Source: Escherichia phage SUT_E1520. Taken from it: a DNA stretch of 64,000 nucleotides. The notes beneath the pieces were generated by a model. The model was given only the letters and a program-made list of their open reading frames with translations. It searched no databases and was not told where the DNA came from. The stretch lies in the sequence record OQ885479. One strand, 5' to 3'. This document shows positions 10,067 to 41,881 of the stretch, piece after piece. Each line of letters begins with the position of its first letter. Position 1 is the first letter of the stretch. A program made the position numbers and the translations under genes.

Positions 10067-10147
10067 TGGGGTTTGGGTACGATTTCTCCGAACTACGTGA
10101 GGTAGTCGAGCAAACTCCGTTTATCTCCCAAGTTTTAGGAGAAATGT

Positions 10148-10471: not shown

Positions 10472-10508
10472 AACCCCAGCTATTGAATAAGTAGTCTGGG
10501 GTTTTTCT
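10472..10508 (+). terminator. rho-independent terminator
   Basis: CCCCAGCT...AGTCTGGGG hairpin followed by TTTTTCT. Confidence 0.6.
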
Positions 10509-25418: not shown

Positions 25419-25603
25419 TGGAAACTCTTTTTCTTTTAATGCTCGTAGGTTCTCTGTTACTAATACTAGCACTTCTACTAATCTGCAACATTCTTAACAA
25501 CAAGAATCTAGAGTTAAAGTGTGAGAACCAAATCCTTAACCGTGAACTTAAACAATATAATCTAGCAGCCCATAAACTGTTAGACAAACTGGAGAATAAA
25601 TAA
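25418..25603 (+). CDS. small membrane protein
   Basis: ORF track. Confidence 0.45.
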   Translation: METLFLLMLVGSLLLILALLLICNILNNKNLELKCENQILNRELKQYNLAAHKLLDKLENK

Positions 25604-26217
25604 TGTTTACACAACAGCCTATTCAAGTAGTACCAGACCATGAACTGAACACATGGGATTACAGCTTTAAAGATTTAACTGCTACTGTACAATTCAAATC
25701 TATGAAGCTAACATTTGCACACACCGACCTTAAAGCCTGTAAAGATCTTGAGAGTAAGCTCGAAGATGCTCGTAAGATTTTTGGCACGGCTCGCATCCCG
25801 GCTGATAACCTGATTAATGCACTAATAGACGCTGGTTATAAACTCGTGAAGACTGAGGTGAACCGTCCTAGTGCTCCAGTAACTATTCGAGATTCATGGC
25901 CGTCCGGACCAATCGCAATGCTGAATAACTCCGATAAAAGATTAATGTCGGATATGCACAATATTCCTTGTGGGGGTGTGGTAAGTAGTACGCAGTCATA
26001 TAAGTTTGTGGAAGATTACGGCCCATCTGTACAGCTAAAACATACTCAAGAAGCTTTTGAATCTGATATGCGAAGCGTAGCACCTGCGGATGCTGGAGTT
26101 TCTAGGAGTTCTGTTTGTACTATTCATTTTAATAATCCTGGTAAACATGGAAGTTTAGAGGATGCTATTATGGAGGCGTTGGGAGCTGCTATTAATGAAG
26201 ATAAGAGAGGTAGCTAA
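25603..26217 (+). CDS. hypothetical protein
   Basis: ORF track. Confidence 0.55.
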   Translation: MFTQQPIQVVPDHELNTWDYSFKDLTATVQFKSMKLTFAHTDLKACKDLESKLEDARKIFGTARIPADNLINALIDAGYKLVKTEVNRPSAPVTIRDSWPSGPIAMLNNSDKRLMSDMHNIPCGGVVSSTQSYKFVEDYGPSVQLKHTQEAFESDMRSVAPADAGVSRSSVCTIHFNNPGKHGSLEDAIMEALGAAINEDKRGS

Positions 26218-26294: not shown

Positions 26295-27179
26295 ATGTAT
26301 AACTTTAAAGATAAACTAAGACAAAACGCTGGTAAAACAAAACCTAAGAAAAATAATAGTGTTCCTGATGCTAAAGTACTTCCATTTCCTGAACTAACCC
26401 AGGAAGAAAAAGATAAACTAGCATTTATGTTCGATGCACTTATAGGATTAAGTGGACGACTGTACTCCACCCTTAGTATTAATGAGAAACGTCTAGTAGA
26501 GATGTTTTGTAAACGTTACCAAGTTACTTCAAAAGGCAACGCCCATAAAGAAGGTGAAAAAGCATTCACAGTCTTAAAAATCAGTGCATATGCACATCGT
26601 TTCTTAGTTTATGGGTTACAGATGGAATACTTCACCATTCCACCATTTAAGTCATTTCACATCTTTGAAGATGAACGAATGAATATTGATGATCTCTATG
26701 GAGATACATACAAGTACTCAGGAAGTCCATTCCATGATGCATTAAGAAGCTATCCTACTAGTTATTTACCAGTTAGGGCATCACAGGGTAAAGCTAGCAT
26801 CTTTGCGGTATACTCAGGATCTAAAGCATCGGATCTAGAAACTTATATATTTAAAGAGCGTAAATCTGTGCTTCCAGATGAAGCATTATATAATAATCCA
26901 TTGCTTCCAGAAAAAGAACCCGAGAAAATTGATGTAACCCCACCAACCCCATCTGATTCTCAATATTTAATCTACGAAAAACAAGTTAAGCTATCTCTAG
27001 AGATTGGTTTAGTCACACCGCTTGCTGCAGCATTCATCAATAGATACCTAGAAATTCCTAACGAGTTCCACACACGTTATAATACGAACATTCAGATAAC
27101 AGATGAACTAATTGCACTAGCAAAAGATACACCTACTGACACTGAGGCGTACCAAAAAGCATACCAAGAGTTACTGTAA
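26295..27179 (+). CDS. hypothetical protein (294 aa)
   Basis: ORF track; SD GGGAGATAATA. Confidence 0.6.
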   Translation: MYNFKDKLRQNAGKTKPKKNNSVPDAKVLPFPELTQEEKDKLAFMFDALIGLSGRLYSTLSINEKRLVEMFCKRYQVTSKGNAHKEGEKAFTVLKISAYAHRFLVYGLQMEYFTIPPFKSFHIFEDERMNIDDLYGDTYKYSGSPFHDALRSYPTSYLPVRASQGKASIFAVYSGSKASDLETYIFKERKSVLPDEALYNNPLLPEKEPEKIDVTPPTPSDSQYLIYEKQVKLSLEIGLVTPLAAAFINRYLEIPNEFHTRYNTNIQITDELIALAKDTPTDTEAYQKAYQELL

Positions 27180-27235
27180 GATCCTGCATGTCTCGGTGCA
27201 CAATACCTGTACCGAGACTCAAATACAAACTCTCG

Positions 27236-27264
27236 TTGACAGATAGCTAAATGTATGTTATCAT
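27236..27264 (+). promoter_or_regulatory. near-consensus sigma70 promoter firing into the repeat-rich non-coding region
   Basis: TTGACA-N17-TATCAT; no ORF for more than 1.5 kb downstream. Confidence 0.45.
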
Positions 27265-27600
27265 AACTCTATGAGTTAATAGAATTAACCATTTAGAGTT
27301 GCCACACAGAAGGTGTGGTGGTTCAGTAATTTAAAATTACTAACTTGTAGCGGAGGATACGGAGCGACAGGACAAGTTAATAAGTAATTTAATATAAATT
27401 GCTAGAAACATCACGAGACCTTCTGGCGGGGGCAAAGCTCTATATGAGAACCCTGGGGGATCTTATATTTAAAATAAAAGTAAAACTTTTGACCACATAA
27501 TTTACATTCAAGATGATACACCTGTTGCCGCTCATCTGCTAGGATGGCACAACACTTTCCTAGAAACTCCAGAGTTCTCACGAAATACTCACTCTTTCTA

Positions 27601-27672
27601 GGGCGGTTCTCCTAAGTTTCTAGGAACATATACTAGGCGGTTTAATACAGGGCGGTTATGGGGAGGGCGGTT
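27601..27672 (+). repeat. four copies of GGGCGGTT interleaved with repeated TTTCTAGGAACATATA units
   Basis: Direct repeats seen in the sequence. Confidence 0.6.
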
Positions 27673-27715
27673 ATTTCTAGGAGACATTTTTTGAAAACAC
27701 ATTTCCAGAAATTAC

Positions 27716-28316
27716 TGTCGGATTTGCACATTGTGTTTCTAGAAATTTATGGTCGGATTTGCACAATTGCCTAAGTTTTTAGGAACATATAATCTCTTGA
27801 AAATGGCAGCATTATTTCGGGCCGAAGGCCCATGATTGCCTGAGTTTTTAGAGCCACAGAAACTTTCACTTGTCAAGCTATTTTGCCCCATTTAGCTAAT
27901 AAGATTTTACTTTATCTGCACTAATCTCAAATTAACCCAAATCTTCTCAACTCTTCCCCAAAATCCCCGCAAATCAGGTGCTACGCACCAAACATGCGCC
28001 CCTCTCGCAGTTCCCTCAAATTTTTCTCGATCTCTCAACTTCTCCCCAAACTCTTACAATCACACACTCTCCAATCGAAGTCACAAAAATCTTGTCGGAT
28101 TCGCACAAATAAACCCATGTCGGATTTGCACATATTCTAGTTAATTCCACAGGATTGATGCGCAGCATCGGATTGCTGGAGTTTTTAGGAAAATTCATTG
28201 TCGGATCCGCACATTATAAAAATTTTTCGGGTCGGATTTGCACACTACCAAAAATTGTCGGATTCGCACATACACGCCCACGCGTAATCCATGGGGGCAA
28301 ATGTCGGATTTGCACA
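27716..28316 (+). repeat. iteron-like array: eight copies of the 15-mer TGTCGGATYYGCACA
   Basis: Copies near 27716, 27751, 28093, 28118, 28199, 28230, 28256 and 28302, irregularly spaced. Confidence 0.7.
27880..28080 (+). other. G-depleted, C/A-rich tract of about 200 bp on the plus strand
   Basis: Strong strand compositional asymmetry, almost no G. Confidence 0.6.
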
Positions 28317-28349
28317 AAAGCGCAGGGCAATTGCCCTGCTTGCCTGAAT

Positions 28350-28545
28350 ACGAATGATAATGAGAATCATTCTCATTTAAAAAGCGGAATGTGAATGATA
28401 ATAATTCGCATTTAAGAATGGAAGTGAGAATTATTCAGGAAGTGAAACGATTCTCATTTAAAAAGTGGAATGATTATTAGTTAGATAGTGAAATGCGAAT
28501 GATACTGATTCGTATTTAAGAATGGAAGTGAGAAACACTATTATT
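28350..28545 (+). repeat. tandem degenerate repeats carrying a Fur-box-like 19-bp perfect palindrome AATGAGAATCATTCTCATT
   Basis: Palindrome at 28359-28377; repeated GAATGATAAT... and ATTCGCATTTAAGAATGGAAGTGAGAA units. Confidence 0.6.
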
Positions 28546-28660
28546 TAAGTTATCCACAGACTTATCAACAGCACGATTTGACTTGACAAAATCCTAGCCA
28601 TTTTGAGGCGTTATCAACAGACTTATCAACAGCTTATCCTACTGTATAAATATACAGTAT
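28541..28660 (+). repeat. left arm of an imperfect inverted repeat of about 110 bp, with DnaA box TTATCCACA and LexA-like box CTGTATAAATATACAG
   Basis: Reverse complement of 32386-32500 aligns along most of its length; DnaA box at 28550-28558, LexA-like box at 28642-28657. Confidence 0.6.
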
Positions 28661-28854
28661 TCCTATGCAGTGAATAATTCTAATATACAGCTAAAACGCT
28701 CTCAAACGCATTCTAACGCGTTTAATTTTGTTGGGGATACTAAAACACGGGTAAAATTGGAGGAGGCTTAGAAATTAGTTAGCGAGCTAACGATCACACA
28801 AGGCGACACGTAACACCCTAATCATTAGCAGGCTAACCATCGCGGGCGCGGTTA

Positions 28855-28873
28855 AATGAGAATCATTCTCATT
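28855..28873 (+). promoter_or_regulatory. second copy of the 19-bp palindrome AATGAGAATCATTCTCATT (Fur-box-like)
   Basis: Exact repeat of the palindrome at 28359-28377. Confidence 0.5.
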
Positions 28874-28915
28874 TGAAAATTGGGGGCACTCCCTGATAGT
28901 TGCGCCCCGTGATTA

Positions 28916-29110
28916 TTAGTCTGGTAGTCGATGCGTGATTTTTTCCTCCTCCCCGTAGGAATCCACCAAATACTGATAATAACCATCGTGATCATAAATC
29001 ACTTTATCATATTCGCCACGCTCGACCGCTTGCCGATTCTCCGGCGTATCTGGCACGTAAAAAACATCAACCATTGTACTGATCTTGGTTACAACTATTT
29101 TATTACTCAT
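28916..29110 (-). CDS. hypothetical protein (64 aa), last gene of the minus-strand operon
   Basis: ORF track; SD-like sequence upstream on the minus strand. Confidence 0.45.
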   Translation of the reverse strand: MSNKIVVTKISTMVDVFYVPDTPENRQAVERGEYDKVIYDHDGYYQYLVDSYGEEEKITHRLPD

Positions 29111-29211
29111 AATAACTCCCTAGTAAATATATTTTTGCCAATAGTGGCGAATGTTATCGCCACCAGCGGAATCATTAGCGGCCTTACTATTACCAACGAA
29201 AATATATAATC

Positions 29212-29571
29212 TCATTGCGCCACCTTTCGAAACGCTGTTTCAATACTATCCGCAGTGGATTGAATATATGCGCCTTTCATTATCAGGCGCTCGGTACATA
29301 CCTTGCGGAAAATATTAATAAAATCATCTTCATTTTCTGCAATTAATGCTTCACCCATAACCTGAACGTCACAAGATGCAAAGGTCAAAAATTGAAACGC
29401 TAGTTCACGGGCAACGACCGCATTAATTTTATAATGTGCCTTGCCCTCATAAATATTAATAACGCCCTTATAAGCTGGGGAAAGCTGATTTAAATAGTTT
29501 GCTAATAATGCTGGGCGGCAATTAGCAACAAAACGATTGCCTTCATAAATTATCATTTGCATAGCTCCCAA
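29212..29571 (-). CDS. hypothetical protein (TTG start per track; first ATG at 29562)
   Basis: ORF track. Confidence 0.5.
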   Translation of the reverse strand: MGAMQMIIYEGNRFVANCRPALLANYLNQLSPAYKGVINIYEGKAHYKINAVVARELAFQFLTFASCDVQVMGEALIAENEDDFINIFRKVCTERLIMKGAYIQSTADSIETAFRKVAQ

Positions 29572-29675
29572 ATAGTTCCGCCGATGATCATTAGCTGACT
29601 AATAATTATCAGAATAAAACCAATTGAAGGCAGGACGCCCCAAAAACGAAAAGCCGTTTTAATTTGCTGAATCAT
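29553..29675 (-). CDS. small membrane peptide (40 aa)
   Basis: Overlapping-coupled with its neighbours; single TM segment; below the track cutoff. Confidence 0.3.
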   Translation of the reverse strand: MIQQIKTAFRFWGVLPSIGFILIIISQLMIIGGTIWELCK

Positions 29676-29802
29676 TTGTTAGCCTCCCGATTAGATAGCC
29701 AGATAAAAGCATAAAGATCCCCAATGAAATGGGGTCATTTTTAAATAAGGTGGCGATAAAACCGCCAGCCATTGCAAGGATAATAACAATAACGCTTTTC
29801 AT
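29659..29802 (-). CDS. small membrane peptide (47 aa)
   Basis: ATGA overlap with the upstream stop; TM segment; below the track cutoff. Confidence 0.3.
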   Translation of the reverse strand: MKSVIVIILAMAGGFIATLFKNDPISLGIFMLLSGYLIGRLTNDSAN

Positions 29803-30011
29803 AGTACCCCACGAAACGCAGCGTAAAAGGTGGCAAAGTGTTTAACTGTTTCAGCTATCACGTTGCCGCGCTTATCAAATTTTTTCTCGGTAACACGAAA
29901 GGCATTTTTGTTACGTGCTACATATTCGATTTTACAATCTTCCCGCTCGAACGTGTTAACATCCACCAGCTTAAAGCCTTTCGAACGTGCAAGGGAAACG
30001 TTGCGGATCAT
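29799..30011 (-). CDS. hypothetical protein (70 aa)
   Basis: ORF track; SD AAGGAGA upstream. Confidence 0.45.
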   Translation of the reverse strand: MIRNVSLARSKGFKLVDVNTFEREDCKIEYVARNKNAFRVTEKKFDKRGNVIAETVKHFATFYAAFRGVL

Positions 30012-30013
30012 TT

Positions 30014-30163
30014 TTATTCTCCTTTACTAGTCATGCAGCCCAGCAGATAAGAAAACGCAGCAATGCCAGCGCCAATAATAACGGCGTGAACGCCAAAAGC
30101 TATTGCAAACAACGATAAAATAGCGCCCAAGATACCCGCCAGAATAGCTCGAAAAATAACCAT
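30014..30163 (-). CDS. small membrane peptide (49 aa)
   Basis: SD GGAGAAT upstream; TM segment; below the track cutoff. Confidence 0.3.
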   Translation of the reverse strand: MVIFRAILAGILGAILSLFAIAFGVHAVIIGAGIAAFSYLLGCMTSKGE

Positions 30164-30213
30164 TTTTTTTTATTCTCCTAGTCAGTGAGGGATATAATAT
30201 CCCCCGTTACTAA

Positions 30214-30444
30214 TTACATTAAAACAATTTTTGCAGCTTGTTTTTTAGTACAGTGTTCCGCTTTCAGCGTGTCCAGCAAAAAGCCCGCCGTTTGCTGATC
30301 GATTTTATCGGCGTTGTATAGTTCTTGGATGGTGTTATAAGTTTTAGCAATGCCGAACTCCTGCACCATTTCATGAATAATGGCGCGGTTAGATACCCAG
30401 CCTTGAGCGGTGAACAGATGAGTAGCAGAAGAGTAAGCAACCAT
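30214..30444 (-). CDS. hypothetical protein (76 aa)
   Basis: ORF track. Confidence 0.45.
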   Translation of the reverse strand: MVAYSSATHLFTAQGWVSNRAIIHEMVQEFGIAKTYNTIQELYNADKIDQQTAGFLLDTLKAEHCTKKQAAKIVLM

Positions 30445-30548
30445 TTTAAGCCTCCAAATTTTTGGGAAATTTTTAATCCACCGTTTTGGTGTAAAAGCAT
30501 TATAACAAAAAAGGCCACCATAAAAGGCGACCTTTACAAAACTTTACA

Positions 30549-31043
30549 TTAAACTACCTGTAAGGATTCAACATTGAAACATCGTTTTAATTCATCATGT
30601 AAAACAGCGTATTCCTCCCATCGGGTATTATCAGGAATATAAACAAGCTGTTTTAATCGATTTGCGTATATTACCGCTTTATTATCAATTATTTCGACGC
30701 CACCATATTTAATAATTAATTTCATGACGGAATTAATAGGATCGCCGCCGTTTACATATGTGCCGGATTTACTTAATTGATAATGATAAAGGCCAGCATA
30801 TACGTTTTCATTTTCATACCATTCGCCAGTTTCTTCGTCTTCATAGCCATCGCTACCAAAACGAGAAGCATTATCAATAGCCATTTCATGAGCGAAAGCG
30901 TCCAGATCCGTACCAGCAGGAACAAAGTATTCCTCGGTATTCCCTTCCCCGCAATAGCCAGTATGACAATCGACTAAAATGATCATATCATGTTTAGCCG
31001 TGCTCACTTCCCCTAGCGAGAAGCCGTATTTTTCCTCAGCCAT
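30549..31043 (-). CDS. hypothetical protein (164 aa)
   Basis: ORF track; SD AGGAGG upstream. Confidence 0.55.
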   Translation of the reverse strand: MAEEKYGFSLGEVSTAKHDMIILVDCHTGYCGEGNTEEYFVPAGTDLDAFAHEMAIDNASRFGSDGYEDEETGEWYENENVYAGLYHYQLSKSGTYVNGGDPINSVMKLIIKYGGVEIIDNKAVIYANRLKQLVYIPDNTRWEEYAVLHDELKRCFNVESLQVV

Positions 31044-31108
31044 TTATTAGCCTCCTATTAATTAACAAGGGAGTAGTAAAGCGGGGAAATAATCCCCGCT
31101 AAATATTA

Positions 31109-32119
31109 TTACTCGCTTTCGGTGTTAGTGGTAAAAGTAGAAATATCAATACCTTTCACCATTTCATCAATCATTTCAGCGATGTTAAAACTTTGCACCA
31201 TTTCCAGCATTGCCGCTTCCATAGCCGCCCCCGCTACCGCTTTCGCCTTTTGGTTAGTCGGTGCGTACTGGTCAACCGCTACACTCAGCAGGTTAGCGAT
31301 CACTACACGACCAATAGGTGTATCGATATAACCTTTGATCATGAATGGTGCTTTTTTAGCCGCTACTTTCGTAATTTGAGTTAATGCAATTTTACCCGCC
31401 TCCAGTTTTGCAGCATTTACAACAGCGGATTTATTGGCGGCAACGATGTTAGCAATCTTGGTCATGGTGTTTTTTCCTTTGTTTTCAGTAGTTTGAGTGT
31501 TAACGCTTTGAGTGTTAGAATTTACAGCATGGTTTTCTACGCTGTCAATAATCTGATCTTCATCTTTCCAGAAAGAAAAACCAGCGCTTTCTATATCCCC
31601 ATCATAAATATATGGGTATAGCTCCCGTGGTAACAAAAAATTACCGTCGCCATCAAAAGCCATTATACCGGTATATTGAGATCCGTCGTTATCCGGCTTA
31701 TGCCATCCAGCGGGTAAATACTTCCAGATAACATCTAAAAATCCCTCAATGCTAGAAAGTCCATTTATCAGATCAAGTCCAATAAGCTCAAAACTATTTA
31801 TATTAAATGATTGACGGCCTGAATTGCTATGATACGCAACAATATTATTACCCTGCGCAACAATAAAATCGGTATCCGGCCCCGCTCCCCTGCCTGTAAA
31901 GATATGGCAATCCCGATTATATAAAACTAGCGTTGCCCCTTGTCTATATAAGGGTAGAAAACTATCCATATCATAAGCGTCATAATCATCAAAAAAGTTT
32001 TGATGAATAGTTTCAATCTTGTTAATAAAATGTTTAATGCTGGTTGACTTGCTACCGTCTAGCAGGTTGCGCAATGCACCCTTTAATACGGTGGCATTAT
32101 CAGGTTTATACAGCCTCAT
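31109..32119 (-). CDS. hypothetical protein (336 aa), first gene of the minus-strand operon
   Basis: ORF track; SD GAGGAGG upstream. Confidence 0.6.
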   Translation of the reverse strand: MRLYKPDNATVLKGALRNLLDGSKSTSIKHFINKIETIHQNFFDDYDAYDMDSFLPLYRQGATLVLYNRDCHIFTGRGAGPDTDFIVAQGNNIVAYHSNSGRQSFNINSFELIGLDLINGLSSIEGFLDVIWKYLPAGWHKPDNDGSQYTGIMAFDGDGNFLLPRELYPYIYDGDIESAGFSFWKDEDQIIDSVENHAVNSNTQSVNTQTTENKGKNTMTKIANIVAANKSAVVNAAKLEAGKIALTQITKVAAKKAPFMIKGYIDTPIGRVVIANLLSVAVDQYAPTNQKAKAVAGAAMEAAMLEMVQSFNIAEMIDEMVKGIDISTFTTNTESE

Positions 32120-32385
32120 TTGTTAGGCCTCCTCGTTAATCGGTGAGTGAATGATAAAGGTAAATTTCTAGCATAGGCAAATATTATTTTACCTTTTTAT
32201 TTTCCTTGCCTAGCGCCTATTTTTATGATAACCGCGCAGCGGTGCAATAAAGAGCAAACCACGGCGAAGCCACCAGGCCGACGCATTGAGGCTTTACTTT
32301 AATATTACCTTACAGCGTTTAGCTCGTTAGAATGCGATTTAAGCCGCTTAAAATTGATTGCAGTTGTTAACACTACCTTTTTACC

Positions 32386-32500
32386 CTGTATAAATATACA
32401 GTAGGATAACCTGTGGATAAGTCTGTGTAAAAGTCCTTATATCGCCGCCTATCGTGTCAAGTCAAAAAGTGCTGTGGATAACTTTGTGTATAACTTAAAT
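32386..32500 (+). repeat. right arm of the inverted repeat, with LexA-like box and two TGTGGATAA DnaA boxes
   Basis: LexA-like box at 32386-32401; DnaA boxes at 32412-32420 and 32473-32481. Confidence 0.6.
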
Positions 32501-32830
32501 GATAGTGGTTCTCACTTAGCTAGATGATTTCTTATAGTTATTATTTCTCATTAATTTATATGTATATTATATATCATGAAATAGTTAGTTGGCTAATGAG
32601 ATTTTTCCGTGATTAATAGTCTGCTAATAATTCAGGTCGTTACAATCCACCAGCATGATTATCATTCTAGCAATTATTAGTCTGCTATCTTTCCGATGCA
32701 TACTAACAAATAAAAGTCAATTAATTTATTTCATAAAATAAGTAGTTATCCACTGGAAAATAAAAGTCAAGTGGATAACTAGGAAAATTTCATTTTTGCT
32801 TTTGGGGATAAGTTATCAACAAGGCTAGAA
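32500..32830 (+). other. AT-rich region with further DnaA-box-like 9-mers; origin-like or host-factor binding region
   Basis: TTATCCACT near 32746, GTGGATAAC near 32771, TTATCAACA near 32813; very AT-rich 32520-32720. Confidence 0.4.
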
Positions 32831-33225
32831 TGCGCCTAAAACGCTCCAGAACGCAATAAAGTTTTTAGCCATCCCATCATAAGGGGATAAGCCGTTTATC
32901 GTTACCACGAGCTTTTTAGATTTTGTCAAGTAGGGCAAAGCAAATATAAATGAAAAAATTACTTGCCTATTTGCTTTATTTTGTGGTATTCGCGCGCCCG
33001 TTTCTTTTAATTTTAGGCCGTCGCCGCACGGTGTCCGGTGAGTTTTACCTTTACATTTCTTTACAAAAATAAGGTTGCGCCATTTTCGGGAATCCCCTAT
33101 TATTTATCTCGTAGGGCGGCAATGACGAACTACACGGCGGGAAGTTTACCGCCACGCTCTTTAAAAATTGGGTACATCTTAAAGCCTATCGGCGGTAAAC
33201 TTATTCATTATAAGGAATCGACGAT

Positions 33226-33429
33226 ATGAAACAAACGCTTTTGATCACTGGCAAGCCTATTAAGGCACTAGATAGCAAAACAAAAAATTTGTTGACAGTA
33301 GCTCAAAGATCAGTAAGATATAGATTCACGCAGTACAAGAAAGGTCGCCAGCAAGGTCTGGAAATGATCTGGCGAAATATTATGATTGACCTAAAAGAAA
33401 ATCATAAAAAATTGCAAAAAATTGTTTGA
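33226..33429 (+). CDS. hypothetical basic protein (67 aa), flanked by a 25-bp inverted repeat
   Basis: ORF track; inverted repeat arms at 33169-33193 and 33437-33461. Confidence 0.3.
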   Translation: MKQTLLITGKPIKALDSKTKNLLTVAQRSVRYRFTQYKKGRQQGLEMIWRNIMIDLKENHKKLQKIV

Positions 33430-33659
33430 CAACCTAGCCGATAGGTTTTAAGATGTACCCAGTTCGATAAGAGCGATAACTTGATAAAATTTGACGGTCG
33501 GTGCTTACCATAATGCATCCCGCCCCCTAACGGGATATAGCGGCCTACGTGGAGTTCTTTAAAATTGATTATATTGGCGAGCGGATTGTTACTTATTACC
33601 TGCTGTTACTTTCTAGCAGGTAATGCGGAACAATCCCCAAATAACTAGGAGTTTATATT

Positions 33660-33911
33660 ATGCAAAACGTTATTACCGCGCCGAAAGTTGGTCAATCCGT
33701 CTTCATTCCTTTCGTTACTAAAACGGATGAATTAACCGGAAAGGCCGAACGTATTAAAGGTGCGGCGCTTATGCCGTTCGATACAATCGACGCGGTATAC
33801 GCTGAAAATGAACGTAGTAACAACGGCAAGCCCGTTTTTAGCGTTCGCGTTAAATCCGGCGATGTTGTAAAGGTTGTTCAACGCAACGAAAAATGGGAAG
33901 CTGTATTGTAA
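33660..33911 (+). CDS. pre-early protein (hypothetical)
   Basis: ORF track; SD TAGGAG; 10-bp-stem hairpin upstream at 33595-33624. Confidence 0.5.
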   Translation: MQNVITAPKVGQSVFIPFVTKTDELTGKAERIKGAALMPFDTIDAVYAENERSNNGKPVFSVRVKSGDVVKVVQRNEKWEAVL

Positions 33912-34007
33912 ATTAGTGTTAACTTTATATCCCCTTATTTCAGGGGGATATAACGATTAACATTAAGTTAATCTAATCCCTTAAATTAAACTAATAGGAG
34001 TTACATC

Positions 34008-34415
34008 ATGACTAACGCTAAAACCGCAAAATTCGCATGGAATGAAGAAAACACTCAGAAAGCTGTTTCCATGTATCAACAGTTAATTAATGAAAACGGT
34101 TTAGATTTCGCAAATAGCGACGGTTTAAAAGAGATTGCAAAAGCAGTGGGCGCGGCTTCTCCCGTATCCGTTCGGTCAAAATTGACCAGCGCAAAAGCAT
34201 ATCAAAAAAGCGATAAGCCTCGCAAAGTTGGCGGCGGTAGTTCAATCCGCAAAGCTCATTATGTACGCGTTATTGCAAAACACGCTATCGATTCCGGCAT
34301 TATCAAAGATGCCGATGATCTGGCAAGCCTTGAAAGTGCAAAACTTGAAACGCTGGACGCAGTAGCGCAATTGTTAGGCGTTGCCGATGAAGTAAAACAA
34401 GCCGCAGGCGAATAA
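34008..34415 (+). CDS. A2-like pre-early protein (putative DNA-binding)
   Basis: 135 aa, immediately upstream of A1; assignment by position and size only. Confidence 0.4.
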   Translation: MTNAKTAKFAWNEENTQKAVSMYQQLINENGLDFANSDGLKEIAKAVGAASPVSVRSKLTSAKAYQKSDKPRKVGGGSSIRKAHYVRVIAKHAIDSGIIKDADDLASLESAKLETLDAVAQLLGVADEVKQAAGE

Positions 34416-34507
34416 TAGTTATACCTTGCCCCCTTTTTTAGTGAGGGGGCAATAATATAACTGTTTAGCGATAGTTATTTTCTTCCCTTAAATCAGGAGT
34501 TTTTAAA

Positions 34508-34705
34508 ATGATCTTTTATCCTACTGAATCATTAATTCTAGGCTTGTTTATTATGGCGGCCTCGTTATTGTTCGCTTATTTTCAAAATGATTTAGATTCG
34601 TATTATTTTAAACGTAAATCTAAGTTAGCAAAGCGTTTAGGTCTTATTTGTTTTATTGCCGCCGTTGCTTGTGGTGTTAGTTCTAGCCTTATGCCTTTAA
34701 ATTAA
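34508..34705 (+). CDS. small membrane protein
   Basis: ORF track; two hydrophobic segments. Confidence 0.45.
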   Translation: MIFYPTESLILGLFIMAASLLFAYFQNDLDSYYFKRKSKLAKRLGLICFIAAVACGVSSSLMPLN

Positions 34706-34795
34706 TGTTGCAAATTATAACGCCTATTATTCGAGGCGTTATATTTGGCAATATTGCCGTTATTAATCTAATCCCTTTAATGGAGTTTTATTATC

Positions 34796-36460
34796 ATGAT
34801 TATTTCCGCAGAAAAACAAACCGTTATCCTGAAAATGGCCGCTGACTTTAATTTCTATGGTAAACGTCTGCGCGCTACTAAACTGGAAGTCTGCGACGAT
34901 ATATCAAAAGCGGTCTACGATACAACGAAACACTCCACCGCCATTTGTGATTGGTTGGAAGCAAATAAACCAGCGAAACCGAAAGCGGCGAAAGTAGCAA
35001 AAGCCATTAAAAACGACGAGCGCCCAGAAGCGGCGGGGGTTGTTTCTAGCACGGTTGAACAGTGGGAAGTAAAACAAGGCAAACGCTTTATTATTACATC
35101 GATTCAGAATAATACTTTCCCGCATAAAAACTTTTTGGCCTCACTTGAACAATATGCCAAATTTATCGGCGCTGATTTGCTCGTTTCTAAGTATATTTAT
35201 AATAAAAACGGTTTTCAAAATGGGGAAGGTGCGGATGGAATCAAATATGATTCCGCGTTTGATAAATATATTTGCAGCAAAAACGTGTTTTTAAATAACC
35301 GCCGTTTCGCTTTCATGGCTGAAATTAATGTTTTGCCAACCGCAGATTATCCGCTTTCTGGATTCGCAGAAACTGCAACGGCTTTAAATATTGAAGGTCT
35401 GGCAATTGGTCACGCTAAAATCACCGCTGAAAGTGTGCCAGCTTTAAAAGGTGAAGTAGTGCGCCGTATGTATTCAACCGGAACGGCAACGCTCAAAAAC
35501 TACATTCAGCAGAAAGCAGGACAAAAGGCCGAGGCGCTGCATAACTTCGGTGCGCTTATTGTTGAGTTCGACGACGACGGGGAATTTTTTGTACGCCAGC
35601 TTGAAACGATGGACGAAAGCGGGGTGTTTTATGATCTGAACGTTTGCGCTACTCCTGCCGGATGCTATGAAACATCGGGGCATGTTTTAGGCTTGCAGTA
35701 TGGCGATATTCACGCCGAAAAATTAGATGATGATTGTGCCGTTGCGTCATGGGCTGGCGAGAATAGTTTGCTTGATATTCTTAAACCAAAATATCAGCTT
35801 ATTCATGACGTGCATGATTTTACATCGCGCAATCATCATAACCGTGCATCCGGTGTATTCCTAGCGAAACAGTATGCCGCCGGACGTGATAAAGTTCTGG
35901 ATGATCTTATCGATACGGGGCGCGTGCTGGAATCAATGGAACGTGATTTTAGTCAAACAATCATCGTAGAATCGAATCACGATTTGGCGCTATCCCGCTG
36001 GCTTGATGATCGTAATGCTAACATTAAAGACGATCCCGCCAACGCCGAACTATATCACCGCCTAAATGCTGCAATTTACGCGGCAATCGGTGAGCATGAC
36101 GATACTTTCAACGTGCTAGATTATGCGTTGCGCAAGGTTGCAGGTTGTGAGTTTAACGCCATTTTCCTAACCACTGACCAATCTTTCAAGATTGCAGGTA
36201 TTGAATGCGGCGTACACGGTCACAACGGCATTAACGGCAGCCGTGGCAACCCGAAACAATTTAAGAAATTGGGCAAGTTAAACACGGGGCATACGCATAC
36301 CGCCAGCATTTACGGCGGCGTATACACCGCTGGCGTAGCTGGTAGTCTGGATATGGGTTACAACGTTGGCGCGTCAAGCTGGACGCAGACGCATTTAATT
36401 ACCTATGCAAACGGTCAGCGCACTTTGATTGACTTTAAAAACGGTAAATTCTTTGCGTAA
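34796..36460 (+). CDS. A1: A1-like pre-early protein, calcineurin/Mre11-like metallophosphoesterase (probable DNase)
   Basis: 554 aa; motifs GDIHAE, HDFTSRNHHN and GHTHTAS. Confidence 0.7.
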   Translation: MIISAEKQTVILKMAADFNFYGKRLRATKLEVCDDISKAVYDTTKHSTAICDWLEANKPAKPKAAKVAKAIKNDERPEAAGVVSSTVEQWEVKQGKRFIITSIQNNTFPHKNFLASLEQYAKFIGADLLVSKYIYNKNGFQNGEGADGIKYDSAFDKYICSKNVFLNNRRFAFMAEINVLPTADYPLSGFAETATALNIEGLAIGHAKITAESVPALKGEVVRRMYSTGTATLKNYIQQKAGQKAEALHNFGALIVEFDDDGEFFVRQLETMDESGVFYDLNVCATPAGCYETSGHVLGLQYGDIHAEKLDDDCAVASWAGENSLLDILKPKYQLIHDVHDFTSRNHHNRASGVFLAKQYAAGRDKVLDDLIDTGRVLESMERDFSQTIIVESNHDLALSRWLDDRNANIKDDPANAELYHRLNAAIYAAIGEHDDTFNVLDYALRKVAGCEFNAIFLTTDQSFKIAGIECGVHGHNGINGSRGNPKQFKKLGKLNTGHTHTASIYGGVYTAGVAGSLDMGYNVGASSWTQTHLITYANGQRTLIDFKNGKFFA

Positions 36461-36515
36461 TTAAATTATTTCCCTAGCGGCTTGAAATATAGCCGCTATT
36501 TCAGGAGTCACAAAA

Positions 36516-36773
36516 ATGAAAGTTACATTACCCAAAACACTGGACGAAAAAGTATTCATTTCACCGGATGAAATGGAATCTGATAAAGTTTACAGCTTCG
36601 GGCCTATCCTAGCCGCTAAAACTAATACTGATGGCGTTATTTCCGTAGATTACCGTGATAATGATGTTGTTCCTTTTGATGACGATAGCGCTTTTTATGA
36701 GTGGCTAAGTGATAATAATCTACCCGTAAACGGTGAATTAACGCCGTACCAGATGCAGATTATTATCAAATAA
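36516..36773 (+). CDS. pre-early protein (hypothetical)
   Basis: ORF track. Confidence 0.5.
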   Translation: MKVTLPKTLDEKVFISPDEMESDKVYSFGPILAAKTNTDGVISVDYRDNDVVPFDDDSAFYEWLSDNNLPVNGELTPYQMQIIIK

Positions 36774-36811
36774 TTTAAATCCATTATTAAACTAATTGGG
36801 GTTTTATAAAT

Positions 36812-37204
36812 ATGAAAAAGCAAAATATTCCATTCGATCGCGCTCAGTCTTCCATTGTTCTGGTTTATTCTAATGGTGAACGTTATCACGTCGAGGCGTG
36901 GCACGTTATTGATGAATTGTTAGATTTCAATGATGCGATGCAGGTTACAACATTTGCATATATGCAAGGCAAACTAACAAGCCATATTAAAGCAAAAGGC
37001 GTTTATATTGACACGGTGAAACAAGAAACGATTATCATCGACGCAGTAAAATCCGGCCTAGCCTTTGCAGTTGTCGCGCCTTGCCTCGCTTGCCTTGATG
37101 ATCAGCTAGCGAGCGCAAAGGTATATACCTGCGCGGGTATTCGTTCCCATGTATCAGGTGAGGATATTAGTTTTATTGCTGATGCGTTGGCTTATGGTCT
37201 TTAA
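36812..37204 (+). CDS. pre-early protein (hypothetical)
   Basis: ORF track. Confidence 0.5.
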   Translation: MKKQNIPFDRAQSSIVLVYSNGERYHVEAWHVIDELLDFNDAMQVTTFAYMQGKLTSHIKAKGVYIDTVKQETIIIDAVKSGLAFAVVAPCLACLDDQLASAKVYTCAGIRSHVSGEDISFIADALAYGL

Positions 37205-37283
37205 TAGTTGATTTATTATTACCCGCTTATAAATAGCGGGTAATGCTGGATAAACTAAATCCCTTTAATGGAGAACGTAACAA

Positions 37284-38018
37284 ATGAATAAAGCTATTAT
37301 GAATATTTCCCGTAATTTCCCGCATATTTCCCGCGTCATGATTTGGGATTTAGACGGCACTATCATTAATTCTTTCCATCGTGTAGCGCCTTGCTTTGAT
37401 AGTGAGGGCAATTTAGATTTAAATAAGTATAAAAATGAAGCCTGCAAACATCATTTAATAATGCAAGATACTTTATTGCCATTGGTTGAATATATGCGCC
37501 AATGTATGAATGATGCAAATACTTTAAACATTATTTGCACCGCTCGACTAATGAGCAAGTCGGACTATTATTATTTGCGTAAACAAGGGTTGCGCGGTCG
37601 TGGTGATAGTAATATCCGTGTATTTTCCCGCGATACACTACACAAATATTTTGAAGCTGATAAAGTTAGCGAGATATACCACAGCAAAGACGCCATTTAT
37701 AAATCGTATTATTTTGAATTATTTAAACAATTATATCCAAACGCTGACTTTACAATGATTGACGATCATAAAGGCGTGCTATCAGCGGCGGCATCATACG
37801 GATTTAAAACGCTGGACGCGCAAGCCATTAACGATATTCTATCAATCGGCGTTGCATTGATAGGTGAAACCTTTATCGATGAATCTCTCGATGATGATAA
37901 TGATTATCAGTTCCTAGCTGATCGTTTGAAATTATGTTGGGAAAGTATGACCGAGGAAGAACGCGCAGAATATAGTTGCAGCCCGCAACAATATATTGAG
38001 AAATTAAAAGTTGCGTAA
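37284..38018 (+). CDS. dmp: 5-prime-deoxyribonucleotidase, HAD-superfamily phosphatase
   Basis: 244 aa; HAD motif I DLDGT near the N-terminus and a later DD motif. Confidence 0.7.
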   Translation: MNKAIMNISRNFPHISRVMIWDLDGTIINSFHRVAPCFDSEGNLDLNKYKNEACKHHLIMQDTLLPLVEYMRQCMNDANTLNIICTARLMSKSDYYYLRKQGLRGRGDSNIRVFSRDTLHKYFEADKVSEIYHSKDAIYKSYYFELFKQLYPNADFTMIDDHKGVLSAAASYGFKTLDAQAINDILSIGVALIGETFIDESLDDDNDYQFLADRLKLCWESMTEEERAEYSCSPQQYIEKLKVA

Positions 38019-38032
38019 TAATTAAAGTTGAA

Positions 38033-38069
38033 ATAGTCACGGTGTGTAATGATAACATGCCGTGACTAT
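38033..38069 (+). terminator. stem-loop after dmp (terminator-like)
   Basis: ATAGTCACGG...CCGTGACTAT hairpin. Confidence 0.45.
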
Positions 38070-38082
38070 TAGCTTGCTAAGT

Positions 38083-38100
38083 ACCGGGCGGTAATGAGAC
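38083..38100 (+). promoter_or_regulatory. third copy (one mismatch) of the Fur-box-like palindrome
   Basis: AATGAGACTCATTCTCAT between dmp and the small-membrane-protein operon. Confidence 0.45.
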
Positions 38101-38169
38101 TCATTCTCATCTGGGGAGCCACTGGACACACCTCCATGTGTAATCTTATGAAATTTGACAAAAGTCGAA

Positions 38170-41398: not shown

Positions 41399-41881
41399 AT
41401 GGCAAATGATGTATTAGTACCAGATCTTATGTCCCCTGAAGGGATGGATGTAATTGAAGCGTATTTACAGTGCGGCAGCGATGTGCCTTCTGCCGCACGT
41501 AGTCTTGGGATGTCCGAAATTGCTTTCCGAGATATTATGAATCGTAGTGAAGTTAAGAATTACTTAAACGATATTTTTATGGAGAGTGGATTCCGTAACA
41601 GAGATCGTTTATTTGGTGTTCTAGATGAGGTTATCAAGCGTAAACTAGAGGAACTGGAAGAAACTGGCATGGGTTCTGACCAAGATATTATGGATATTCT
41701 CTGGAAAGCACATAAAATGAAAATGGAAGAAATGAAAATGATGGTAGAATTGGAGAAAGTGAAGGCAGCAGCCCGTACTCCAGCTAACCAGACCAACATC
41801 CAGAATAATATTATTGCTGGAGCTGGGGATCAAAACTACATGGACTTAATTACTTCCCTAGCTACTGGAGGTAAGAAGTAA
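41399..41881 (+). CDS. putative terminase small subunit
   Basis: 160 aa directly upstream of the large terminase with stop/start overlap; helix-turn-helix-like N-terminus. Confidence 0.5.

What the first reader, a model, noticed from the sequence alone, without database searches (positions are those of the whole stretch)
27716..28316. Iteron-like array of eight 15-mers TGTCGGATYYGCACA
Eight near-identical copies in about 600 bp, irregularly spaced at 25-35 bp within clusters, with no coding potential, is typical of a multi-site protein-binding array such as replication, partition or injection-control sites. It lies near where one boundary of the terminal repeat should be if the repeat is about 10 kb as in T5, in the region where an injection stop signal has been described for T5. 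It is not a CRISPR array.
Basis: partly seen in the sequence, partly recalled or inferred. Interest (0 to 1): 0.6.

Follow-up and report, generated by a model that had tools for sequence, protein, structure and literature searches.

The report
T5 "DRD" repeats at terminal-repeat boundary
The eight 15-mers are real and are the already catalogued "direct repeat D" elements of phage T5's injection-stop / terminal-repeat-boundary region: a deeply conserved, one-directional set of probable protein-binding sites whose reader and job have never been determined.

Summary
Observation confirmed: eight copies of TGTCGGATYYGCACA (at most 1 mismatch), all on the + strand, at 27716-28316, plus a ninth at 25946; 0.26 expected by chance. 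The window is a Tequintavirus (100% to phage SUT_E420). The copies map one-to-one onto "direct repeat D" copies 1-8 and 10 of T5 record AY587007, beside the annotated injection stop signal, the 7.9% nick and the left-terminal-repeat end. So the feature is already known (Davison 2020 lists "nine DRD repeats"), but no function or binding protein has been assigned.

New here:
- The core TCGGATTTGCAC recurs in one orientation in Klebsiella, Pectobacterium and Vibrio T5-like phages whose surrounding DNA is unalignable.
- In every lineage with an annotated repeat end except Sugarland (a probable mis-call), that end lies inside or at the edge of the array.
- The motif drifts or is replaced (Proteus, Aeromonas) while neighbouring DnaA and LexA-type boxes stay at consensus, arguing for a phage-encoded reader.
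- A2 is predicted to have a GcrA/Myb-like DNA-binding domain.

Best guess (about 0.38): recognition array for terminus formation and packaging initiation. Main rival (about 0.3): A2 binding sites that restart DNA transfer. Replication iterons, DnaA boxes and CRISPR are rejected.

The parts
28302..28316 (+). DRD copy 1 (TGTCGGATTTGCACA); ends 3 nt before the nick-1 homologue
28256..28270 (+). DRD copy 2 (TGTCGGATTCGCACA)
28230..28244 (+). DRD copy 3 (GGTCGGATTTGCACA)
28199..28213 (+). DRD copy 4 (TGTCGGATCCGCACA)
28166..28179 (+). Possible degenerate copy (CATCGGATT-GCTGG) inside the conserved 81-bp gap, fused to a GAGTTTTTAGG element
   Evidence: read; repeat family D6
28118..28132 (+). DRD copy 5 (TGTCGGATTTGCACA)
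28093..28107 (+). DRD copy 6 (TGTCGGATTCGCACA); last copy inside the terminal repeat
27845..27925 (.). Most conserved block of the non-coding region. The inner (T5 'right') end of the terminal repeat falls at about 27850/27851 (cctgagttttta|GAGCCACAG). The repeat runs from here to about 38133.
27751..27765 (+). DRD copy 7 (GGTCGGATTTGCACA); outside the terminal repeat
27716..27730 (+). DRD copy 8 (TGTCGGATTTGCACA); outside the terminal repeat
25946..25960 (+). DRD copy 10 (TGTCGGATATGCACA) inside ORF 25603-26217; synonymous sites are frozen
28320..28339 (+). Nick-1 consensus GCGCAGGG (T5 7.9% nick) overlapping palindrome J, a terminator-like hairpin for minus-strand pre-early transcripts
34008..34415 (+). 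Gene A2 (candidate reader under the rival explanation); predicted GcrA/Myb-like DNA-binding domain
41399..41881 (+). Small terminase subunit gene (candidate reader under the best explanation)

Best explanation
The 15-mers are an oriented array of binding sites for a sequence-specific, most probably phage-encoded, DNA-binding protein. They bracket the inner end of the long terminal repeat.

My preferred mechanism: they are the recognition array for making that genome end. The T5 left end enters the cell first, so it should be packaged last. Packaging should therefore start at the right end of the right terminal repeat, which in the replicating concatemer is this very boundary. The small terminase subunit (window 41399-41881) would load on copies on both sides of the cut site, and the large subunit would cut in the conserved block at about 27851. 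The six copies inside the repeat would then sit in the first few hundred base pairs to be packaged, as lambda cosB R sites or SPP1 pacL/pacR do.

Shown: the motif, its one-strand orientation, its deep conservation, and its position around annotated repeat ends. Inferred: that a protein binds it, which protein that is, the direction of packaging, and the role in cutting.

Confidence that this is a selected cis-acting protein-binding array is about 0.85. Confidence in the terminus/packaging role specifically is about 0.38.
For: 1. Selection on the motif itself. Klebsiella phage L013 shares only about 76 bp of BLAST-detectable DNA with this region, yet has 9-10 copies on one strand. The same core is present in Sugarland and My1, Vibrio GRLPWR and Vibrio phi 3. 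Across 15 loci there are 146 sites on the + strand against 3 on the - strand. Synonymous sites inside DRD10 are frozen.
2. Link to the repeat end. T5, Sw2 (PhageTerm) and My1 ends coincide within 2 alignment columns, between an outside cluster (86-246 bp away) and an inside cluster (178-353 bp away). The GRLPWR duplicated end starts 1 nt after a copy. The phi 3 end falls inside a copy (tcagtttt|GCACC), and the T5-type boundary element TGAGTTTTTA|GAGCCAC resembles that variant.
3. Most copies lie inside the repeat, so they are duplicated at the physical right end of the virion DNA.
4. The motif drifts or is replaced in Aeromonas, Vibrio and Proteus phages while DnaA and LexA-type boxes in the same loci stay at consensus. 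That fits a co-evolving phage reader.
5. Paired motifs occur only on T5-like contigs among 2.9 million viral contigs.
6. Established knowledge: terminase recognition sites are typically short repeats next to the cut, and the last DNA packaged is the first ejected.
Against: - No experiment links these repeats to packaging, and T5 packaging direction is inferred, not measured.
- The putative recognition part of TerS (the N-terminal HTH) differs as much between T5 and the Vibrio phage (same motif) as between T5 and the Proteus phage (different motif).
- DRD10 is conserved 1.9 kb away on the side that would not be packaged.
- Some relatives tolerate a homing-endonuclease gene inserted inside the array.
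- The conserved 75-bp block could be the whole terminase signal, leaving the 15-mers another role.
- Annotated repeat ends can be off: Kenya-K38 differs by 28 nt, and the Sugarland end is probably a nick.
- The array also lies just beyond the first-step-transfer stop point, so position alone cannot separate this from the A2 rival.
Confidence: 0.38

Rival explanations
1. Sites for the pre-early protein A2 (alone or with A1). After the first 8% of the DNA has entered and A2 has been made, A2 binds the copies as they emerge just beyond the stop point. It thereby restarts or ratchets second-step transfer, or targets A1 to this place.
For: - The array starts about 50 bp beyond the estimated shear point and nick at 7.9%.
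- A2 is an essential DNA-binding protein required for second-step transfer, with no known target (10.64898/2026.04.02.716235).
- The GcrA optimum is TGATTCG (PMC4647560). The DRD centre is GGATTCG or GGATTTG.
- DRD10 is conserved further along the direction of entry.
- A2 and the motif are both confined to T5-like phages.
Against: - Proteus and Aeromonas phages keep A2 with the same predicted recognition helix (VR[STQ]KL) but lack or replace the motif.
- An apparent co-variation (VYQK / RK.HYVR) collapsed when more Vibrio phages were added.
- This reading gives no reason for the repeat end to sit inside the array in every lineage, or for most copies to be duplicated at the right end.
- There is no precedent for dedicated ratchet sites.
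- The GcrA-site resemblance is post hoc (roughly 2-3% by chance).
Confidence: 0.3
2. Sites for a conserved host protein. This could be weak DnaA boxes extending the neighbouring DnaA-box cluster (the Davison membrane-anchor model) or another host factor.
For: - DRD positions 7-15 (ATTTGCACA) match 8 of 9 positions of TTWTNCACA.
- The array sits beside consensus DnaA boxes, a LexA-type box and a Fur-like box.
- The core is 12/12 identical between coliphage and Vibrio phage although phage proteins are only 32-46% identical.
Against: - The invariant positions TCGGAT lie outside the DnaA box.
- The variable positions 9-10 and 15 are box positions that matter; the last base is A, T or C depending on lineage.
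- In Proteus, Aeromonas and some Vibrio phages the motif changes while true DnaA and LexA boxes stay at consensus.
- I could not match the motif to any host factor consensus (from memory only).
- Paired motifs were found only in T5-like contigs.
Confidence: 0.1
3. Replication or recombination element. Examples: iterons of an origin, or a polar barrier or processing signal that defines where terminal-repeat duplication or repeat-repeat recombination stops.
For: - Repeated oriented sites next to DnaA boxes look superficially origin-like.
- All copies read on the nicked strand, and nick 1 lies 3 nt after copy 1.
- A2-like Myb folds include Reb1, which makes polar fork barriers.
Against: - No initiator gene adjoins the array.
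- Spacing is irregular, with no 22-bp-type regularity.
- T5 origins are reported near mid-genome (10.1101/866236).
- Nicks 2 and 3 have no DRD beside them.
- No data at all bear on barrier activity.
Confidence: 0.1

Closest known systems
T5 'direct repeat D' (DRD), Repeat Region 3 / injection-stop-signal region (GenBank AY587007, AY543070; Davison 2020 bioRxiv 10.1101/866236)
   Same: Same sequence, order, orientation and neighbours (nick 1, palindrome J, DRC/DRE repeats, DnaA boxes, left-terminal-repeat end). The alignment is one-to-one.
   Different: Copy 9 of T5 has degenerated in this phage, and the Y-Y variants sit in different copies. Otherwise nothing differs: this is the same element.
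Terminase recognition arrays: lambda cosB R sites, SPP1 pacL/pacR
   Same: Short repeated sites within a few hundred bp of the terminase cut, on one or both sides, on the end packaged first. (Established knowledge, recalled from memory.)
   Different: Binding by T5 TerS is untested. There are more copies (8-12), spread over a wider span (about 600 bp), all in one orientation, plus one conserved copy 1.9 kb away.
T7 SRL/SRR short-repeat arrays flanking the terminal repetition (Dunn and Studier 1983; recalled from memory)
   Same: Arrays of short direct repeats abutting a direct terminal repeat, long known, with unsettled function.
   Different: In T7 the arrays are heptamers on both outer flanks of a 160-bp repeat. 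Here 15-mers bracket only the inner end of a 10-kb repeat.
Plasmid/phage replication iterons and oriC DnaA-box arrays
   Same: Multiple oriented copies of a 12-20 bp site in non-coding DNA, with DnaA boxes nearby.
   Different: There is no adjacent initiator gene, no regular spacing and no mapped origin here. The motif is not a DnaA box.
GcrA-type sites (YGAKTCK, PMC4647560)
   Same: The DRD centre GGATT(C/T)G resembles the GcrA optimum TGATTCG, and the candidate reader A2 has a GcrA-like DNA-binding domain.
   Different: GcrA reads N6-methylated GANTC and acts as a sigma-70 cofactor at promoters. Nothing suggests methylation or promoters here, and most copies are GATTT, not GANTC.

Membership tests
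T5 DRD repeats (Repeat Region 3 / iss region) | Consensus TGTCGGATTTGCACA, about 9-10 copies, all in one orientation | tested here: met
   8 + 1 copies in the window versus 10 annotated in T5, with the same sequences
T5 DRD repeats (Repeat Region 3 / iss region) | Position: between nick 1 / palindrome J and the first early genes, straddling the left-terminal-repeat end | tested here: met
   one-to-one alignment; the repeat end maps to window 27851, between copies 6 and 7
T5 DRD repeats (Repeat Region 3 / iss region) | Conserved among T5-like phages | tested here: met
   (458-514 records)
Terminase recognition site (cosB / pac type) | Lies next to the site where the mature genome end is cut | tested here: met
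   annotated ends of T5, Sw2, My1, GRLPWR and phi 3 lie in or at the edge of the array
Terminase recognition site (cosB / pac type) | Bound by the small terminase subunit and required for packaging initiation | not testable with these tools
   needs EMSA or footprinting and packaging assays; the TerS gene is identified at 41399-41881
Terminase recognition site (cosB / pac type) | Site specificity co-varies with TerS | tested here: inconclusive
   the TerS HTH is variable in all lineages, with no pattern matching motif class; few sequences
Replication iterons | Adjacent gene for the cognate initiator (Rep) | tested here: not met
   flanking ORFs have no Pfam match and are not conserved in other motif-bearing phages
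Replication iterons | Regular spacing in helical phase, at a mapped origin | tested here: not met
   spacings of 15-81 bp, modal 27 bp; origins are reported mid-genome (10.1101/866236)
DnaA-box cluster | 9-mer TTWTNCACA is the conserved unit | tested here: not met
   the conserved unit is TCGGAT..GCAC; box positions 3, 4 and 9 vary; true TTATCCACA boxes lie separately at 28550-28631
CRISPR array | Repeats of 23-47 bp with regularly sized unique spacers, and usually cas genes | tested here: not met
   15-nt repeats with spacers of 10-327 bp; the spacer sequence is conserved in relatives; the cas-gene part of the feature was not tested
Partition site (parS / centromere) | Adjacent parA/parB-type genes | tested here: inconclusive
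   none is annotated or detected in the flanking genes; the whole genome was not scanned
Known RNA family | Match to an Rfam covariance model | tested here: not met
   no match at E of 1 or better in 27000-29400

The most novel reading that the evidence does not exclude
The DRD array is the missing cis-element of one of T5's two unexplained DNA transactions. Either it is the terminase recognition array that defines the inner end of the 10-kb terminal repeat, or it is the target through which the GcrA/Myb-like protein A2 restarts DNA transfer after the 8% pause. Possibly one array serves both, which would explain why the stop point and the repeat end have stayed adjacent from coliphages to vibriophages.
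Probability: 0.3. Interest if true: 0.7.

Novelty: already known. Interest (0 to 1): 0.38.

Why it matters
Two-step DNA injection by T5 has been unexplained since the 1960s. How T5-like phages cut and duplicate their 8-13-kb terminal repeats is also unknown. These repeats are the most conspicuous conserved cis-element at the place where both events happen, and no protein has been assigned to them.

This analysis shows that the core motif is kept across several subfamilies and genera, that it always brackets the repeat end, and that it behaves like the target of a phage protein rather than a host one. That narrows the experiments to two candidate readers, TerS and A2, and makes the question directly testable.

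In practice, the motif and the adjacent conserved block give a sequence-based way to place terminal-repeat ends in T5-like genome assemblies and to spot mis-called ends.

Tried and rejected
1. Nickase element. Nick 1 lies 3 nt after copy 1, but T5 nicks 2 and 3 share only GCGCAGGG and have no DRD beside them. Rejected as a general link.
2. Flanking genes as readers. The ORF018/ORF019 homologues have no Pfam match and no homologues next to the arrays of Klebsiella, My1 or Vibrio phages. Rejected.
3. A2 co-variation. With seven phages, VYQK and RK.HYVR tracked the motif. Further Vibrio loci showed a continuum of left-half variants and put D124 in the same class, so I withdrew the signal as inconclusive.
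4. TerS co-variation. No pattern.
5. DnaA-box reading. Rejected on the logo.
6. Host-factor identification by recalled consensus (CRP, IHF, Fis, FadR, NtrC, sigma-54, marbox, PhoB, LexA). No convincing match; these were memory-based comparisons, not tests.
7. Shared cut-site motif between the two ends of the repeat (AGCCAC at both ends in this phage). Not conserved in T5. Dropped.
8. Helical phasing. Spacings cluster near half-integral turns (modal 27 bp), but the copies are not phylogenetically independent. I drew no conclusion.
9. Davison's 2015 paper could not be retrieved.
10. A wider A2-anchored scan of IMG/VR was biased by its own search patterns and added few new lineages.

Full report
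**1.
A pattern search for TGTCGGATYYGCACA finds eight copies with at most one mismatch at 27716, 27751, 28093, 28118, 28199, 28230, 28256 and 28302. A ninth copy lies at 25946. All nine are on the + strand, against 0.26 expected from shuffles. They form two clusters, of two and six copies, separated by 342 bp. Spacings within clusters are 35 and 25/81/31/26/46 bp. Only short ORFs of 79 aa or less overlap the region, the closest records annotate no gene there, and Rfam finds nothing.

**2. What the window is, and what the repeats are called.**
The region is 100% identical to Escherichia phage SUT_E420 and 91% identical to T5. The window's + strand is the reverse complement of the T5 convention.

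- T5 record AY587007 annotates "direct repeat D copy 1-10", the 7.9% nick, palindrome J, direct repeats C, B and A, and the end of the left terminal repeat at 10139.
- T5 record AY543070 annotates an "injection stop signal (iss)" over the adjoining stretch.
- A pairwise alignment maps the eight copies one-to-one onto T5 copies 8, 7, 6, 5, 4, 3, 2 and 1, and the ninth onto copy 10. Copy 9 has decayed in this phage.
- The T5 repeat end maps to window 27851, in the gap between copies 7 and 6. The T5 left end maps to about 38133. The terminal repeat therefore occupies about 27851-38133 of the window.

[quoted passage not shown] The feature is therefore already known and catalogued. Its function is not known.

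**3. How deep the conservation goes.**
BLAST finds the region in 458-514 phage records. More telling is what happens where the surrounding DNA no longer aligns.

| Phage (locus) | Relationship | Array |
|---|---|---|
| Klebsiella vB_Kpn9-P3 (L013) | aligns with the window over only about 76 bp | 9-10 copies of the same 15-mer, all on one strand, on both sides of that 76-bp segment |
| Sugarland | Sugarlandvirus | core TCGGATTTGCAC present |
| Pectobacterium My1 | another subfamily | core TCGGATTTGCAC present |
| Vibrio GRLPWR | A1 only 32% identical | same core present |
| Vibrio cholerae phi 3 | Jesfedecavirus | twelve copies |

- Over 15 loci there are 146 sites on the array strand and 3 on the other. 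Positions 3-8 (TCGGAT) and 11-14 (GCAC) are nearly invariant. Positions 1-2, 9-10 and 15 vary, and an A-tract sits 4-6 nt upstream. The scan itself required the core, so only the free positions are unbiased.
- A scan of 2.9 million viral contigs for two copies within 35 bp returned only T5-sized contigs and a few fragments.
- Copy 10 lies inside a gene. All five of its third-codon positions are invariant in 11 loci, although 69% of third positions in that gene vary and the flanking codons change amino acids (about 0.003 if positions are independent). The DNA sequence itself is constrained there.

**4. Phage reader or host reader?**
Immediately beyond the array lie host-type boxes:

- TTATCCACA / TTATCAACA DnaA boxes at 28550-28631;
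- a perfect LexA-type box, CTGTATAAATATACAG, at 28642;
- a Fur-like box at 28356 (17 of 19 positions).

In Aeromonas, Vibrio and Proteus T5-like phages these DnaA and LexA-type boxes remain at consensus, but the DRD-type motif drifts:

- T[CA][GA][GA][AT]TTTGCACC in Thalassavirus-like phages;
- TTGAATTCGCACA in D124;
- TCGRWTTAGTAC in Aeromonas;
- replaced in Proteus phage 1 by a dense ATTCTATTAYTC array at the equivalent place.

That behaviour fits a co-evolving phage protein better than a universal host factor. The partial resemblance of DRD positions 7-15 to a DnaA box fails on the logo. The invariant half lies outside the box, and box positions 3, 4 and 9 are the variable ones.

**5. The repeat end always sits in the array.**

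| Phage | Basis of the end | Position relative to the array |
|---|---|---|
| T5, Sw2 | curated annotation; PhageTerm | both fall at cctgagttttta\|GAGCCACAG |
| My1 | annotated left repeat | within two alignment columns of the T5/Sw2 position |
| GRLPWR | start of the duplicated terminal region | 1 nt after a copy |
| phi 3 | annotated left repeat (7769) | inside a copy, tcagtttt\|GCACC |

- For T5, Sw2 and My1, the end sits at the edge of the most conserved block of the whole non-coding region. Copies lie 86-246 bp outside it and 178-353 bp inside it.
- The T5-type boundary element TGAGTTTTTA|GAGCCAC resembles the phi 3 variant.
- Sugarland is the exception. Its PhageTerm end (10138) is cacataa|GCGCAGG, exactly homologous to T5 nick 1 (CACAAAA|GCGCAGGG). 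The homologue of the T5 boundary lies about 350 bp further on. I think a nick was mistaken for a terminus.

**6. Candidate readers.**
- *The flanking early genes* are not conserved with the motif.
- *TerS* (41399-41881; PHROG 3802) is 46% identical to the Vibrio protein and 52% identical to the Proteus protein, with a variable N-terminal HTH.
- *A2* (34008-34415; PHROG 1725 "DNA binding protein") is 40% identical to the Vibrio protein and 43-44% identical to the Proteus protein. An apparent A2/motif co-variation disappeared with more phages.
- *GcrA's preferred site* is TGATTCG (PMC4647560), and the DRD centre is GGATT(C/T)G. This resemblance is suggestive, but I noticed it after the fact.
- *Distribution.* A2 homologues were found only in T5-like phages. 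A1 is also found in Flavobacterium, Caulobacter and Rhizobium phages.

**7. Mechanism.**
I am fairly confident (about 0.85) that this is a selected, oriented array of protein-binding sites. Two roles compete.

*(a) Terminus formation and packaging initiation (about 0.38).* The left end of T5 DNA enters first, so by the last-in, first-out rule of tailed phages the right end should be packaged first. In concatemers, that end is cut at this boundary. Repeated TerS sites on one or both sides of the cut are the norm (lambda cosB, SPP1 pacL/pacR). This reading explains why the end lies in the array in all lineages and why most copies are inside the repeat, and hence present at the physical right end.

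*(b) A2 sites that restart DNA transfer (about 0.30).* The array begins about 50 bp beyond the shear point. A2 is essential for the second step, binds DNA and has a suitable fold. Copy 10 lies further along the direction of entry.

The Proteus and Aeromonas phages are equally awkward for both readings. A host-factor role and a replication/recombination role get about 0.1 each.

**8. Verdict.**
It is a known element of unknown function, so novelty is low. The comparative results here do sharpen a testable question, but none of them is experimental evidence:

- conservation across several subfamilies and genera;
- a constant association with the repeat end;
- the pattern expected of a phage-encoded reader;
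- the GcrA-like fold predicted for A2;
- a probable mis-called terminus in Sugarland;
- LexA-type and Fur-type boxes that I did not find mentioned in the literature.

Noticed in passing
window 28642-28657 and 32386-32401: Two perfect LexA/SOS-type boxes (CTGTATAAATATACAG), out of only three CTGT-N8-ACAG in the 64 kb. Each lies next to a pair of DnaA boxes (T5 'palindrome D' / the IRD' and IRC-IRD regions). The same box beside TTATCCACA recurs in Klebsiella, Sugarland, Proteus, Vibrio and Aeromonas T5-like phages. Davison 2020 does not mention it, and a literature search found nothing.
   Followed up: partly
window 28356-28374 (family at 28347-28534 and 28852-28879): GATAATGAGAATCATTCTC matches the 19-bp Fur-box consensus (consensus recalled from memory) at 17 of 19 positions. 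It belongs to the T5 'direct repeat C' / palindrome E-I family. This is notable for a phage whose type member uses the Fur-regulated receptor FhuA.
   Followed up: no
window 27845-27925: This block of about 75 bp, starting at the terminal-repeat end, is the only part of the non-coding region still BLAST-detectable in Klebsiella T5-like phages. It aligns with My1. It is a candidate for the actual terminase cut or recognition signal.
   Followed up: partly
L018 (Klebsiella phage Sugarland MG459987.2) 10138: The 'repeat region predicted by PhageTerm' ends at CACATAA|GCGCAGG. This is the exact homologue of the T5 7.9% nick, 3 nt after a DRD copy. The homologue of the T5/Sw2/My1 repeat end lies near 10488. 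The annotated end is probably a nick mistaken for a terminus.
   Followed up: partly
window 27607-27629, 27766-27788, 27835-27857, 28172-28194; L023 and L024 (T5 nicks 2 and 3): A second repeat family (CCTRAGTTTYTAGGA) is interleaved with the 15-mers, and one member contains the repeat end. T5 nicks 2 and 3 (GCGCAGGG) are flanked by the same kind of element, CCAGAGTTTCTAGGAGA|GCGC. Nicking and end cutting may therefore share a recognition element.
   Followed up: partly
window 25946-25960 in ORF 25603-26217: DRD copy 10 is embedded in a coding sequence. Its synonymous positions are frozen while the flanking codons change amino acids.
   Followed up: yes
window 34008-34415: A2 has no match in the local Pfam copy, though the database lists PF26822 for its homologues. 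It is predicted to have a GcrA-like DNA-binding domain plus a second helical domain. I did not find this reported in the papers read.
   Followed up: partly
L020 4951-5138 (Proteus phage 1, MT679223): At the position equivalent to the DRD array, this Novosibvirus has ten or more tightly packed copies of a different motif (CCACCATTCTATTATTC, 15-18 bp period) and no DRD.
   Followed up: partly
relatives of window 28132-28199 (hits H87 and H88; L005 and L007): Some Salmonella phages carry an HNH/homing-endonuclease gene, or an insertion of about 460 bp, inside the inner DRD cluster. The array therefore tolerates being split.
   Followed up: no
window 28118 to 28199, and the equivalent gaps in L013, L114, L014 and L125: An 81-bp spacing between two particular copies recurs in coliphage, Salmonella, Klebsiella and even one Vibrio phage array.
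   Followed up: no
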